From: the human T2T-CHM13v2.0 reference genome, Homo sapiens
Length of the DNA stretch: 64,000 bases
Assembly (NCBI RefSeq): GCF_009914755.1
Contig: NC_060940.1
Direction: 5' to 3' (one strand)
Part shown: in pieces, positions 756-28,249 of the stretch
Numbering within the stretch: position 1 is the stretch's first letter
How the letters are laid out: each line of letters begins with the position of its first letter
The notes under the pieces: generated by a model
Told to the model about the DNA's origin: nothing
Databases searched by the model: none
Seen by the model: the letters and a program-made list of their open reading frames with translations, nothing else
Translations under genes and position numbers: made by a program

Positions 756-1422
756 AGCCAATCACTCCCTGTGTCTGGTGAGATGGCGCAGTCTACTGGC
801 CGTTCCTTGGCCACCCCACTAAATTGTGCAGTGGAGTCAGTTTCACCCGGTGGAGTCAGTTTCATGGAGTCAAAGAAGGAATGGTGCTGTACCCAGTGGA
901 GATCTGAGGGGCTCTGTTTGGAAGATGGGGGAGATTCCTGGCCAGGCAGAGAGAGCAGGTGTCCACCACACAGCTCTTACCCTTGAAGAACTCCCCAGTA
1001 GTGGCAGGGTGAGCGCAAGGCCACCTATAACTATGACAAAAGAAGCAGAAAGTGATTGTGTGCTCCAGGAGAAGACTGGGGGCAGGGAGTAGGGGGACAG
1101 AGTCTGGAGATGTGACAGCCTTGCCTCACTCCTGCAGAAACCCTGCCAGCTGCCTGTCCCAGTGGACTCTGAGTGATTCTTGTCACTCAACCTCATGAAA
1201 GAGGTAATCATGCCCGACAAGATTCATAAAAGGGCAGGCGGAGTGATCAAAGGGCTGAGTGATGAAGATCGACTGAGAAGATGAGGGCCCTTGTATCTGA
1301 AGAGGTGACAGCAGAGAGGGGCTGTAATATACACCTCTAGACTGCAGGGGGTAGACCCAGATTTGCTCTCCAGGTCCAAGAATCCAGCAATGCTGTGATC
1401 ATTTGGTCCTTGAGAAAGGTCA

Positions 1423-1714
1423 TTCAAGGGAAACTTACAGGAAAACTTGCCCACAAAAGTGCTGGGCCTGCAGCCCCAGGAGAAGATCCAGGCAGAAAGA
1501 AGGAAGGAGAGAACCAGCATCACTGGGGGCCTCACCTGGACCTTTGTCTGAGCCAGCGCTTTAACCCAGTCTATCCTTTTGTCCTCATGGCAGCCCAGGG
1601 AGGTGCCGGCATCTTTAGTCTCCTGTTACAGAAGAGGAAACAGACCCCAGGGAGGTTTAGGAACTTGCTCAAGGTCATGCAAGCTGGGGAAATGGTGGAG
1701 TCTCTGGCAATGAG
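1423..1714. repeat. Inverted duplication, left arm (contains a MIR fragment)
   Basis: Reverse complement of 2675-2967; 5 substitutions + 1 indel by manual alignment. Confidence 0.97.
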
Positions 1715-2176
1715 CTCCGTCCTCCACACTCACCTCCTCCACCTGCACAGATGCTCTTATGTGCAGCTCTGTGGAGCATCCTAGGTGACCTACAGGTTCT
1801 GGGGAGGAATGGCAGGCTTCTTTTTACACCCCTGCCCTCCCTGTCTTCACCCTTCAAGACTGGACTCAAATGCCACCCCCTCCAAGGAGCCCCCAGTTGC
1901 GAGCCAGTGCTCTCTCCTCTGACCTCTTCTTGCTCAGAGCCTCTGTGATGCCTGGTGCTAGAGGCAAGAAACAGCAGGAAGGAGCAGGGGAGAGCACAAG
2001 CACTGCAGCCCCACGGGCCAGAACTCAAATCCAGGTTGGAGGTTTCCTTGGCTCTCTGGCCTTGGGCAAGTTCATTTCTAAAACAGGCCAACAGAACCTC
2101 AGTCCCAGGATCACTGAAGGGTGAAGTGAGACAAGGCCCTTGAAGGCCCATAGCAAGCCCCCTACCCAACCCAGTA

Positions 2177-2402
2177 TTCATCATCATTATCATCATCATC
2201 ATTATCATCATTCAGTTATTGACTGATTGATTGATTGATTGATTGAGATGGGGGTCTCACTCTGTTGCCTAGGTTGGAGTGCATTGGTGTGATCATAGCT
2301 CACTGCACTCTCCAACCCCTGGACTCAAGCGATCCTCTTGCCTCAGATTCCCTAGTAGCTGGGCCTACATGTGCGGGCCACCACATCCAGCTAATTTTTT
2401 TA
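2177..2402 (-). mobile_element. Alu right monomer (AluJ/FRAM-like) with adjacent (ATC)n/(GATT)n microsatellite
   Basis: gagatgggggtctcactctgttgcc…cagctaattttt. Confidence 0.85.
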
Positions 2403-2674
2403 ATGTTTATTATTATTATCATCCTTTCGATATAAATGCCTTCTCCCCAAATTGACATCCAGGTAATTCTTGAATGGCTGATCCTTGGGGAAACCCCTCA
2501 GGCGACCTGAGATGACCGAGATCTGGAGGAACCATGTGGTTCATCTATAGTGCCATGGCAGCCACACCACTCAGAGACCACTCAGTCATAAGCCTAGTCA
2601 CAATTAAGCCGCTGCCCTCTGAGAACACAGTGACCTGCCCTTTGTGTTCAAAGGGCCCTTGTGTTCAAAGGGTC

Positions 2675-2967
2675 CTCATTGCCAGAGGCTCTGCCATTTC
2701 CCCAGCTTGCATGACCTTGAGCAAGTCCCTAAACCTCCCTGGGGTCTGTTTCCTCTTCTGTAACAGGAGACTAAAGATGCCGGCACCTCCCTGGGCTGCC
2801 ATGAGGACAAAAGGATAGACTGGGTTAAAGCTCTGGCTCAGACAAAGGTCCAGGTGAGGCCCCCAGTGATGCTGGTTCTCTCCTTCCTTCTTTCTGCCTG
2901 GATCTTCTCCTGGGGCTGCAGGCCCAGCACTTTTGTGGGCAAGTTTTCCTGTAAGTTTCCCTTTGAA
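2675..2967. repeat. Inverted duplication, right arm, flanked by direct repeats
   Basis: Reverse complement of 1423-1714; ctttgtgttcaaagggcccttgtgttca at 2640-2667 and 2969-2996. Confidence 0.97.
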
Positions 2968-3133
2968 ACTTTGTGTTCAAAGGGCCCTTGTGTTCACTGG
3001 GTCCTCCTTGCCATCTAGGTCCCTGCCCCGGTGGCCCACGAGGAGGAGACTCCTCCCCGAACCACCCCAGCCCCAGCCATGTCAGGTCCCTAGACTGCCT
3101 CATCACACCCTGTACTCCCCACTCACTCCTTCA

Positions 3134-3865
<732 letters not shown>

Positions 3866-7428: not shown

Positions 7429-7598
7429 GATATTAAAGCATTTGAAAAGCAAGGACCCCGTGCAATTGAGGCTGGAGCACTTGGAGCAAGGTTTCTCTGT
7501 CTATGTCAACGGTGCCAATTCGGAGCTGAAATCATCACCGCGGAAAGCTATTCACTCTGACTTCTCCAGAAGTGCCTCCCACACGGAGGGGACACACG
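7429..7598 (+). CDS. KATNIP: KATNIP coding exon (likely exon 4), 170 nt, phase 2 to 1
   Basis: tttctctttcag|G acceptor, CACG|gtgagc donor; encodes (R)ILKHLKSKDPVQLRLEHLEQGFSVYVNGANSELKSSPRKAIHSDFSRSASHTEGTH(D), recognised as N-terminal KIAA0556. Confidence 0.96.
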
Positions 7599-22075: not shown

Positions 22076-22510
<435 letters not shown>

Positions 22511-22766
22511 CTACTAGAGTTTGGTAGGTCAGTAAGACTCTGACATCATTTTCTTCATCATCTAGATAATCCTTATGTTTACTAAACCTGCAGGGAATTG
22601 AATATTACAAGGGGTGAAAGGTTCTAACCCCAGGGCTTCAAGGGAAATGCATGCCCTAATTACCACCACCACCACCACCCCTTTTTCTTTTTTATTTATT
22701 TATTTTTTTGCTGCTTCTAGGACCAGTTCTAGGAAATTGCTTTTTCTAGGGCCAATTCCTCCCTAG

Positions 22767-23096
<330 letters not shown>

Positions 23097-27504: not shown

Positions 27505-28249
27505 GTAGGGATGGCCTTGGCCTTGTGCTCGGGACACCTGAAGGACGGCGAGGCTCGGTGCTGCAGTGGCCCCTCGGGGCACTTTCTGACAGTTATTTAT
27601 TCTGTCCTTCACTCGCCGCTGTGTTCCTTCACTCTTGCGTTCATTTCACACAGTTTGATGAGCAGACCTTGGGCTAGAGGTCAGCATTCAGAGGCACCCG
27701 GTGACCAGGGGTCGGTGAGGCTGGGGTCTGACTTCTAAGGGTCACTAGCACATAGTCCCTGTACAGGGAGAGAATGCAGAGAGGTTGGGGCAGAGCATGG
27801 CGCAGACAGAGGAGGGAGAGGATCCCGGAAGGCTTCCTAGAGGGAGTGACTTTTGTCCTGGGTCCTAAAAGCTGGGTAAGAGTTTGAGGGGCAAGTTGGT
27901 GAGGGCAGGCAGCAATTGCTGATGCTCAGCCTGTCCACACGTGTATACATGCACCTGATAAATATTTCGAATACCACCCGCAGGGCGGCAGGAGCCACAT
28001 GTTTAAAAGCCTAGAGGCCTATGCAGCTTTGGCTTGGAGTCCATGTCGGTTTAGCAGCTTACAGGGTTGACAACAGGACATTTTACTCCCCATCCTCAGA
28101 TTGCCATTTCATTCCTGAAGTCCTTTGAACTGCAAAAGTATATCCCAGTCCTTCCTTCCACAAGCATTTGTTAAGCACCTCTCACTGACCATCAGGCTCT
28201 GTCCCAGGCACCAGAGATTCAGAAATGAACAAAACTGAAGAGGTGCCTA

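What the first reader, a model, noticed from the sequence alone, without database searches (positions are those of the whole stretch)
1423..2967. ~292-bp, ~98% identical non-Alu inverted duplication around a 960-bp spacer
Seen: 1423-1714 is the reverse complement of 2675-2967 with 5 substitutions and 1 indel. Three of the substitutions cluster within ~20 bp of the inner end and long stretches are identical. The arms contain unique sequence plus an old MIR piece, so shared repeat ancestry cannot explain the identity. Established: close, near-identical inverted repeats drive recurrent NAHR inversions, are homogenised by gene conversion, and fold into long dsRNA when transcribed. Inference: the spacer (1715-2674) may be a polymorphic inversion invisible to short reads, and KATNIP pre-mRNA may carry a near-perfect ~290-bp hairpin (ADAR/Dicer substrate) 4.5 kb upstream of the first exon in this window.
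Basis: partly seen in the sequence, partly recalled or inferred. Interest (0 to 1): 0.8.

Follow-up and report, generated by a model that had tools for sequence, protein, structure and literature searches.

The report
Young inverted copy-paste scar in KATNIP intron
A 283-base piece of a KATNIP intron was copied backwards and pasted about 0.9 kb downstream, leaving a tell-tale 45-base duplication of the landing site, so the near-perfect inverted repeat is most likely the scar of a DNA copying accident and not a working element.

Summary
1423-1714 is the reverse complement of 2675-2967, with 5 substitutions and 1 indel in 293 columns. The arm occurs only twice in the 3.1-Gb genome.

That repeat occurs nowhere else in the genome. 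The last 10 nt of the upstream copy are also the inner end of the arm homology. The left arm has no such flanks.

The right arm is therefore a derived, inverted, templated insertion of 1423-1704 with a microhomology junction and a target-site duplication. This is the signature of template switching during replication or repair synthesis. Six of the 8 substitutions fall within 26 nt at that junction (scan P=3e-4). The rest diverges by 0.7%, which suggests a young event.

The sense RNA is predicted to form a 289-bp stem. I could reach no expression, editing, population or ape data.

A catalogue of 612 IR-flanked inversion candidates has no entry at my estimated position. Near-perfect intronic inverted duplicates are a known class (197 human cases over 300 bp).

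Verdict: real, mechanistically neat, probably neutral. It is a new member of a known kind.

The parts
1423..1714 (.). Left arm, the inferred donor (source) copy. 1423-1704 was copied; 1705-1714 is the stretch shared with the target site (microhomology).
   Evidence: Alignment. No flanking direct repeat (score 13 against a null median of 14). One of three related old-repeat copies (L003) aligns weakly past 1714, to 1774.
1715..2639 (.). Intervening sequence between donor and target site (925 nt). It is ordinary intronic DNA with an Alu fragment and microsatellites.
   Evidence: Sequence. Sub-threshold Alu/SRP-type Rfam hits at 2248-2393.
2640..2684 (.). Target-site copy A (45 bp), upstream of the inserted arm. 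Its last 10 nt (2675-2684, CTCATTGCCA) are also the inner end of the arm homology.
   Evidence: (D5): 42/45 identical to 2969-3013. The 45-mer occurs only at these two places in the genome. It folds as a ssDNA hairpin, z = -2.77.
2685..2967 (.). Inserted inverted copy of 1423-1704 (283 nt). This is the right arm minus the microhomology.
2968..2968 (.). Single orphan base (A) at the outer junction. It matches neither the donor nor the target.
   Evidence: Junction views.
2969..3013 (.). Target-site copy B (45 bp), downstream of the inserted arm. It reads CTCCTTGCCA where copy A and the donor read CTCATTGCCA.
2668..2693 (.). Cluster of 6 of the 8 substitutions that separate the duplicated material from its templates. 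It straddles the inner junction.
   Evidence: Scan statistic P = 3e-4, or 2e-3 if the AA/CT pair counts as one event. Fisher test of 6/26 against 2/302 gives P = 3.5e-6.
1423..2967 (+). Predicted long hairpin in the sense KATNIP pre-mRNA: a stem of about 290 bp and a 960-nt loop, lying in the intron 4.46 kb upstream of exon 7429-7598.
   Evidence: Folds. In the sense RNA the three clustered differences are G-U wobbles, leaving 2 mismatches and 1 bulge.

Best explanation
The structure is the scar of one local rearrangement: an inverted templated insertion.

Shown: a 283-nt copy of 1423-1704 sits in reverse orientation at 2685-2967. It lies between two copies of a 45-bp target sequence, with a 3-10-nt microhomology at the inner junction and one orphan base at the outer junction.

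Inferred mechanism: a growing DNA end that had just copied the 45-bp site (itself hairpin-prone) came off its template. It annealed through CTC(A/C)TTGCCA to the opposite strand about 0.9 kb behind and copied 283 nt there. It then returned to the original template 45 nt upstream of where it had left, so the 45-mer was copied twice. This is a FoSTeS/MMBIR-type template switch, or the equivalent during break repair. In the four-point notation of Loytynoja and Goldman the order is 3-2-4-1.

Inferred: the cluster of differences at the junction was made at or near the event, and the event is young (interior divergence 0.7%).

Inferred consequence: the KATNIP pre-mRNA gained a ~290-bp near-perfect intronic hairpin. 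This is most likely a neutral by-product that is spliced out, and perhaps ADAR-edited, in the nucleus.
For: 1) Inverted copy, 5 substitutions and 1 indel in 293 columns. The arm is present only twice in the genome.
2) A 45-bp direct duplication lies immediately on both sides of the right arm (42/45, alignment score 75 against a null 95th percentile of 20). It is unique to these two sites in the genome.
3) The left arm has no flanking repeat (score 13) and neither does the whole unit (score 19, within the null). This fixes the polarity as left = donor, right = copy.
4) Ten nt are shared by the donor end and target copy A. Copy B differs at one of them, as expected if copy A's end paired with the donor.
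5) The target folds as a ssDNA hairpin better than 199 of 200 shuffles. The two donor ends do not (171 and 112 of 200 shuffles fold as well).
6) Six of 8 substitutions lie in 26 nt at the inner junction (P = 3e-4). The left 28 nt of the 45-mer and the outer 26 nt of the arm carry no substitutions (Fisher P = 0.009 and 0.023).
7) The interior has 2 substitutions in 273 nt, or 0.73%. That gives roughly 3.7-7.3 Myr, with a 95% range of 0.4-26 Myr.
8) Template switching is an established source of new inverted repeats and RNA hairpins in human and ape genomes (passages of PMC5453318 read; listings and abstract starts of PMC8794818/10.1101/2021.04.15.439925, PMC10710096 and PMC2621351).
Against: No outgroup or population sequence could be examined, so the empty ancestral site is inferred and not seen.

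The outer junction has no microhomology and carries an orphan base. That fits end-joining as well as a second template switch.

Loytynoja and Goldman report that event types in which point 4 precedes point 1, as here, were not observed among their short human-chimp events. Backward returns are standard in the larger FoSTeS/MMBIR literature, but that is recalled.

The junction cluster could also be the unconverted edge of an older repeat.

The test that the old interspersed repeat continues past the donor's inner end was weak: 1 of 3 copies, at low identity.

If synthesis was error-prone along the whole tract, the age estimate is only an upper bound.
Confidence: 0.65

Rival explanations
1. Same insertion origin, but old (tens of Myr). 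The interior of the arms is kept nearly identical by intrachromosomal gene conversion between the inverted copies. The diverged inner edge and the 45-mers show the true age.
For: The inner 19 nt of the arm plus the 45-mer differ at 6 of 64 positions (9%), against 0.7% in the interior. Higher divergence at arm edges is what conversion tracts that stop short of the ends would leave. Conversion between close inverted repeats is established knowledge (recalled).
Against: The excess is one-sided and tight. All 6 differences lie in 26 nt, while the left 28 nt of the 45-mer and the outer 26 nt of the arm have no substitutions (Fisher P = 0.009 and 0.023). An old age should have marked those stretches too. 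The perfect tracts are only 131 and 104 nt, a small substrate for sustained conversion.
Confidence: 0.18
2. The pair is an active element whose spacer toggles by NAHR as a hidden polymorphic inversion, and/or the hairpin is a selected ADAR or Dicer substrate that affects KATNIP.
For: Geometry and identity allow both. The predicted stem has 289 pairs. Inversions with IRs as short as 140 bp have been validated (PMC13629690). A few long near-perfect intronic duplexes are heavily edited, for example in a KLHDC1 intron (PMC7006430).
Against: No entry near the locus among 612 IR-flanked inversion candidates. No Rfam family, including miRNAs, lies on the arms. Both arms are in one intron, so no exon is looped out. 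Barak et al. find that such structures are mostly very weakly expressed and are selected against, not for. Searches for KATNIP or KIAA0556 together with 'inverted' returned 3 and 14 papers, none on this topic by title or abstract start. The origin scar explains the identity without invoking function.
Confidence: 0.1
3. Mobile-element origin: either a DNA transposon or MITE with ~290-bp terminal inverted repeats, or an L1-mediated retro-insertion of the right arm.
For: Terminal inverted repeats and target-site duplications are hallmarks of transposons. A 45-bp duplication is within the range seen for L1-mediated events (recalled).
Against: The arm has only two copies in 3.1 Gb. No duplication flanks the whole unit (score 19, within the null); the duplication flanks one arm only. 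Neither end of the insert has an A or T run.
Confidence: 0.03
4. Assembly artefact, or a private allele of the CHM13 assembly.
For: Only one assembly was examined. If all differences arose during the event, the insertion could be very recent and polymorphic.
Against: The copy is diverged (5 substitutions and 1 indel) and carries an orderly target duplication and microhomology. A mis-join would not create those. The window contains no N.
Confidence: 0.04

Closest known systems
FoSTeS/MMBIR-type replicative template switching (Hastings et al. 2009, PMC2621351; seen as a listing and abstract start only)
   Same: A copy of nearby sequence is inserted in inverted orientation. There is microhomology at a junction. 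The stretch between the return and departure points is duplicated. Point changes lie next to the junction.
   Different: The scale is tiny (283-nt copy, 45-nt duplication, about 0.9 kb jump) compared with the kb-to-Mb disease CNVs for which the model was proposed. One junction is blunt with an orphan base. This is an evolutionary event that may or may not be fixed, not a patient rearrangement.
Short template-switch mutations, four-point model (Loytynoja and Goldman 2017, PMC5453318; passages read)
   Same: A fragment 2->3 is copied as a reverse complement from nearby, which creates a new inverted repeat and a potential hairpin.
   Different: [quoted passage not shown] The order here is 3-2-4-1, and the authors say types with point 4 before point 1 were not observed in their data. 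The copy here is 283 nt.
Template switching as a creator of RNA hairpins and de novo miRNAs (Monttinen and Loytynoja, 10.1101/2021.04.15.439925 / PMC8794818, and PMC10710096; listings and abstract starts only)
   Same: One mutational event creates a perfect stem in a transcribed region.
   Different: The stem here is ~290 bp with a 960-nt loop, far beyond miRNA-hairpin size. No Rfam miRNA family matches the arms.
Long, nearly perfect intragenic inverted duplicated sequences (Barak et al. 2020, PMC7006430; passages and Table S8 searched)
   Same: Both arms lie within one pre-mRNA, in an intron, at 98% identity. This is the class considered most MDA5-like and sometimes hyper-edited.
   Different: At 292-293 bp it falls just under their >300-bp cut-off. 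It is not in their table: the table has three chr16 rows and no coordinate beginning 27633-27635 (hg19). It is not made of two mobile-element copies.
IR-flanked polymorphic inversions (Moreira-Pinhal et al. 2026, PMC13629690; abstract, sections 4 and 13, and supplementary tables searched)
   Same: An inverted repeat pair flanks a short unique segment. The size falls within their ranges (IRs 140 bp-190 kb, inversions 197 bp-4.4 Mb).
   Different: It is not among their 612 candidates. No second orientation has been observed.

Membership tests
Template-switch (FoSTeS/MMBIR-type) inverted templated insertion | The inserted segment is a reverse-complement copy of nearby sequence | tested here: met
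   283 nt at 2685-2967 is the reverse complement of 1423-1704, 925 nt away
Template-switch (FoSTeS/MMBIR-type) inverted templated insertion | Microhomology at the switch junctions | tested here: inconclusive
   Inner junction: 10 nt shared by the donor and copy A, 9 of 10 with copy B, and at least the 3 nt CTC. Outer junction: none, plus one orphan base
Template-switch (FoSTeS/MMBIR-type) inverted templated insertion | Duplication of the stretch between the return point and the departure point | tested here: met
   45-bp direct duplication at 2640-2684 / 2969-3013, found only at these two genomic sites
Template-switch (FoSTeS/MMBIR-type) inverted templated insertion | Empty ancestral site in an outgroup or another haplotype | not testable with these tools
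   No primate or other human assemblies are held. Paper reading closed before the ape SV tables could be searched
Short template-switch mutation (four-point model) | Event type among those observed, with point 4 after point 1, and a short range | tested here: not met
   The order is 3-2-4-1. The authors report such types as unobserved. The copy is 283 nt
NAHR-mediated polymorphic inversion | High-identity inverted repeats at both breakpoints | tested here: met
   98% over 289-293 nt. Longest perfect tracts are 131 and 104 nt
NAHR-mediated polymorphic inversion | Both orientations of the spacer seen among haplotypes | tested here: inconclusive
   No entry at chr16 27.60-27.65 Mb (hg38; position derived from recalled gene coordinates) among 612 candidates. 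No haplotype data were examined directly
Long nearly perfect intragenic dsRNA (Barak et al. class) | Inverted duplicate within one pre-mRNA, >96% identity and >300 bp | tested here: not met
   Identity is 98% and both arms lie in the same KATNIP intron, but the length is 292-293 bp, just below the cut-off
Long nearly perfect intragenic dsRNA (Barak et al. class) | Expressed and A-to-I edited | not testable with these tools
   No RNA-seq or editing database was available. Only a thermodynamic prediction exists
DNA transposon / MITE with terminal inverted repeats | Multiple genomic copies and a target-site duplication flanking the whole element | tested here: not met
   Two arm copies only. The whole-unit flank score of 19 is within the null
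L1-mediated retro-insertion | Poly(A) tail and an A/T-rich endonuclease site at the insert-TSD boundary | tested here: not met
   The contexts of both insert ends show no A or T run. The endonuclease consensus is recalled

The most novel reading that the evidence does not exclude
A single long-range template switch of the 3-2-4-1 type created a ~290-bp near-perfect hairpin de novo in the pre-mRNA of a ciliopathy gene, within the last few million years and possibly on the human or African-ape lineage. This type was reported as unobserved among short events. It would be a datable, sequence-resolved example of how non-transposon long dsRNA loci are born. The locus may still be segregating, hyper-edited, or occasionally flipping its 960-bp spacer.
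Probability: 0.12. Interest if true: 0.55.

Novelty: new member of a known kind. Interest (0 to 1): 0.3.

Why it matters
This is a clean, fully readable example of how a near-perfect, non-transposon inverted repeat arises in one step. Donor, target, microhomology, target duplication and junction-proximal changes are all still visible.

Such events are the raw material for long intronic dsRNA, a class that Barak et al. (PMC7006430) find to be rare and under purifying selection, and for small IR-flanked inversions that short reads miss.

For KATNIP itself there is no sign of any consequence. The structure lies deep in an intron, 4.46 kb from the nearest exon in the window. Its value is as a mutational-mechanism specimen and as a candidate for dating with ape assemblies.

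Tried and rejected
1) Repeat-family origin. The genome-wide search found only the two arms and three short old-repeat matches. Rejected.
2) Continuation of the old repeat past the donor's inner end, as independent proof of polarity. Only 1 of 3 related copies (L003) aligned beyond 1714, and weakly (110/162 overall). L004 and L005 stopped at 1685 and 1677, and the spacer's own copy gave nothing useful. Inconclusive, and not used as main evidence.
3) Transposon TSD around the whole unit, and a direct repeat around the left arm. Scores of 19 and 13 fall within the null. Rejected.
4) L1 hallmarks. None found.
5) Known RNA family on the arms. None found; there are only sub-threshold Alu/SRP and Alu-derived miRNA-model hits in the spacer, plus weak snoRNA-model noise.
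6) The 3-substitution patch as a secondary templated patch. It gives an 11-nt exact match to the reverse complement of 1935-1945, but 3 of 27 alternative triples do as well, and 1.5% of 400 random placements reach 11 nt. The source paper warns that matches under 12-13 bp arise by chance. Suggestive only.
7) Literature on this locus. The combined search listed no KATNIP/KIAA0556 paper among its top 20. 'KATNIP' + 'inverted' returned 3 papers and 'KIAA0556' + 'inverted' returned 14 (13 listed); none is on this topic by title or abstract start. The dsRNAscan preprint's main text does not mention the gene, and its supplements are closed.
8) Barak Table S8. No row for this locus, but the locus is below their length cut-off, so this says little.
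9) Porubsky et al. published version. Not held. The preprint main text has no KIAA0556 mention, and its supplements are closed.
11) Earlier scan findings.

Full report
OBSERVATION. A local alignment of 1300-1800 against the reverse complement of 2580-3100 gives 1423-1714 versus 2675-2967 over 293 columns. There are five substitutions (1557/2832, 1662/2727, 1696/2693, 1697/2692, 1701/2688) and one single-base indel, an extra A at 2964. The ungapped core reported by the repeat finder is 1426-1714 / 2675-2963, 289 nt at 98%, with 960 nt between the arms. Three substitutions sit 14-19 nt from the inner end.

The arm is not a repeat family. A search of the whole 3.1-Gb assembly returned five matches: the two arms and three short matches (55-78 nt, 78-84% identity) to arm positions 193-270. 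I take those three to be copies of an old interspersed repeat; the name MIR is my recollection and comes from no tool. In the 64-kb window, 64 inverted pairs of at least 150 nt lie within 10 kb of each other. Of the 25 longest shown, all others are 72-86% complementary. I take these to be Alu pairs; that label is also recalled.

The right arm lies between two copies of a 45-bp direct repeat, 2640-2684 and 2969-3013, which are 42/45 identical (family D5). A 100-nt query starting at 2969 finds only these two places in the genome. The last ten bases of the upstream copy (2675-2684, CTCATTGCCA) are also the first ten bases of the arm homology. The downstream copy reads CTCCTTGCCA and then runs into unrelated sequence. 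At the outer end the arm homology stops at 2967, one orphan A follows at 2968, and the second 45-mer starts at 2969.

Controls support this reading. The same alignment applied to the flanks of the left arm scores 13, and applied to the flanks of the whole 1423-2967 unit it scores 19. A null of 500 random 90x90-nt pairs from the window has median 14 and 95th percentile 20, while the right-arm flanks score 75. Neither end of the inserted piece has an A or T run.

READING. The layout target / inverted copy of nearby DNA / target again is an insertion scar. It fixes the polarity: the left arm is the source, and the right arm (net 283 nt, 2685-2967) is the derived copy. The whole event added 329 nt, made up of 45 + 283 + 1.

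The simplest mechanism is a double template switch by a growing 3' end. It copied the 45-mer, dissociated, re-annealed through the CTC(A/C)TTGCCA microhomology to the opposite strand 925 nt behind, and copied 283 nt. It then returned to the first template 45 nt upstream of the departure point, so the 45-mer was copied a second time. The mirror-image order, for a fork moving the other way, is equivalent. The A/C difference between the two 45-mers inside the microhomology is what this model predicts, because copy A's end was paired with the donor.

The target is structure-prone. It consists of two 17-bp tandem units (D5). As single-stranded DNA, 2630-2690 folds at -12.4 kcal/mol with z = -2.77, and only 1 of 200 shuffles folds as well. 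The two donor ends fold no better than shuffles. This fits a stalled or slipped fork but does not prove one. I cannot separate a replicative switch (FoSTeS/MMBIR type) from the same steps during break repair. The blunt outer junction with an orphan base would also suit end-joining.

THE CLUSTER OF DIFFERENCES AND THE AGE. Eight substitutions separate the duplicated material from its templates: five in the arm and three in the 45-mer. Placed on the right-hand locus, six of them fall in the 26 nt 2668-2693, which straddles the inner junction. The chance that any 26-nt window holds 6 of 8 is 3e-4. It is 2e-3 if the adjacent AA/CT pair counts as one event. For the arms alone the evidence is weaker: P = 0.007 for 3 of 5 in 6 nt, and 0.10 for 3 of 5 in 20 nt. 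The single indel is 4 nt from the outer junction.

Outside the first 19 nt, the arm has 2 substitutions in 273 nt, or 0.73%. That corresponds to about 3.7-7.3 Myr at 1.0-0.5e-9 per site per year, with a Poisson 95% range of 0.4-26 Myr. The rates are recalled values. If synthesis was error-prone along the whole tract, the true age could be lower.

The main rival is an older event whose interior is homogenised by gene conversion. That would also leave diverged edges. But the left 28 nt of the 45-mer and the outer 26 nt of the arm carry no substitutions, against 6 in the 26-nt junction window (Fisher P = 0.009 and 0.023). This one-sidedness favours a local, event-associated origin. I put the rival at about 0.18.

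One more detail did not reach significance. The three arm substitutions turn the patch into an 11-nt exact match to the reverse complement of spacer 1935-1945. However, 3 of 27 alternative base triples do as well, and 1.5% of 400 random placements reach 11 nt. Loytynoja and Goldman warn that matches under 12-13 bp arise by chance. I report it as suggestive only.

RNA CONSEQUENCE. The + strand is the KATNIP sense strand, and both arms lie in the intron upstream of exon 7429-7598. The 1545-nt unit folds at -947.5 kcal/mol, with 289 of 292 left-arm bases paired to the right arm. The arms alone, joined by a 4-nt linker, give -631.8 kcal/mol, and the spacer alone gives -315.9. In the sense RNA the three clustered differences are G-U wobbles, so only two mismatches and one bulge interrupt the stem. 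The antisense version has four mismatches and folds at -624.6.

This is only a thermodynamic prediction. No expression, editing or small-RNA data were within reach. No Rfam family matches the arms at E <= 1. The hits in 1000-3400 are sub-threshold Alu/SRP-type and Alu-derived miRNA models in the spacer and beyond, plus weak snoRNA-model noise. Because both arms lie in one intron, no exon is looped out.

INVERSION. The pair has the geometry for NAHR. The longest perfect tracts are 131, 104, 33 and 13 nt. Moreira-Pinhal et al. 2026 (PMC13629690) compiled 612 IR-flanked inversion candidates. Their sources were five long-read, Strand-seq and optical-mapping studies of 195 individuals, PCR-validated sets, paired-end predictions and inverted segmental duplications. 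The IRs range from 140 bp to 190 kb and the inverted segments from 197 bp to 4.4 Mb (abstract and sections 4 and 13). Their supplementary tables hold no number beginning 27621-27624, no KATNIP or KIAA0556, and no chr16 entry with a coordinate beginning 2760-2764.

My hg38 position, about chr16:27.622-27.624 Mb, is derived from recalled RefSeq gene coordinates and the offset to the annotation given with the finding, so it is approximate. The 50-kb span searched allows for that. This is mild evidence against a commonly detected inversion. It is not proof that the spacer never flips.

COMPARISON WITH WHAT IS KNOWN. Template switching that copies a nearby fragment as a reverse complement, and so creates inverted repeats and hairpins, is described for human and ape genomes in PMC5453318 (passages). 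I saw PMC7954356, PMC8794818 and PMC10710096 only as listings and abstract starts, and the MMBIR model PMC2621351 likewise.

In the four-point notation this event is 3-2-4-1. The authors state that types in which 4 precedes 1 were not observed among their short human-chimp events. So this event falls outside the short-event spectrum and is closer to small-scale FoSTeS/MMBIR, where backward returns create duplications; that last point is recalled.

On the RNA side, Barak et al. 2020 (PMC7006430) count 197 human intragenic inverted duplicates longer than 300 bp and above 96% identity. Most are intronic, 20 are expressed above FPKM 0.01, and 7 are strongly edited (passages). The present stem is 292-293 bp, just under their cut-off, and it is not in their table. 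The kind is therefore known. This locus itself does not appear in the papers I could search. 'KATNIP' + 'inverted' gave 3 papers and 'KIAA0556' + 'inverted' gave 14; none is relevant by title or abstract start. The main text of the dsRNAscan preprint has no mention of the gene.

LIMITS. No other human haplotype and no primate genome could be consulted. The search of earlier findings was not open. Paper reading closed, before the ape structural-variant tables could be searched. bioRxiv supplements are closed, and the published Porubsky et al. paper is not held. Those supplements may well list this insertion or an inversion call. Polarity and mechanism rest on the internal anatomy of one assembly.

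VERDICT. The finding is a real and unusually legible inverted templated insertion with a target-site duplication. It is probably young and probably neutral. It incidentally gives the KATNIP pre-mRNA a ~290-bp intronic hairpin. It is a new member of known kinds, namely template-switch insertions and long intronic inverted duplicates. Interest is modest (0.3). It would rise if ape and pangenome data show a human-lineage or segregating event, or if RNA data show hyper-editing.

Noticed in passing
window 2640-2673 and 2969-3002: The 45-bp target consists of two 17-bp tandem units (CTTTGTGTTCAAAGGGC / CCTTGTGTTCAAAGGGT). Both copies contain the tandem, so it predates the insertion. The unit holds short internal inverted repeats and folds as a ssDNA hairpin (z = -2.77). 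The site may be prone to slippage or fork stalling.
   Followed up: partly
window 2685-2695 versus 1935-1945: The three clustered substitutions in the right arm create an 11-nt exact match to the reverse complement of a spacer segment about 750 nt away. This could be a secondary templated patch. The statistics are only suggestive: 3 of 27 alternative triples tie, and 1.5% of 400 random placements reach 11 nt.
   Followed up: yes
window 2161-2400: The spacer holds an ATC/ATT-rich microsatellite, a (GATT)n run and an antisense Alu fragment. The Alu fragment gives sub-threshold Rfam SRP, mir-3135 and mir-1268 model hits at 2248-2393. This is ordinary intronic repeat content.
   Followed up: partly
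window 1394-1410 versus 2989-3005: A 17-nt stretch just left of the donor arm resembles one unit of the 45-bp target (13/17, score 19). This is within the null range (95th percentile 20), so it is probably chance.
   Followed up: yes
outside the window (hg19 chr16:27948233-27950054, from a table in PMC7006430): Barak et al. list another long near-perfect intragenic inverted duplicate on chr16, about 0.3 Mb away (481 bp, 97.9% identity). It is not part of this window and I did not examine it.
   Followed up: no
window 22076-23089 and many others: The window holds 64 inverted pairs of at least 150 nt within 10 kb, at 72-86% complementarity among the 25 longest shown. I take these to be Alu-Alu pairs. 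They form the ordinary background of imperfect intronic dsRNA against which the 98% pair stands out.
   Followed up: partly
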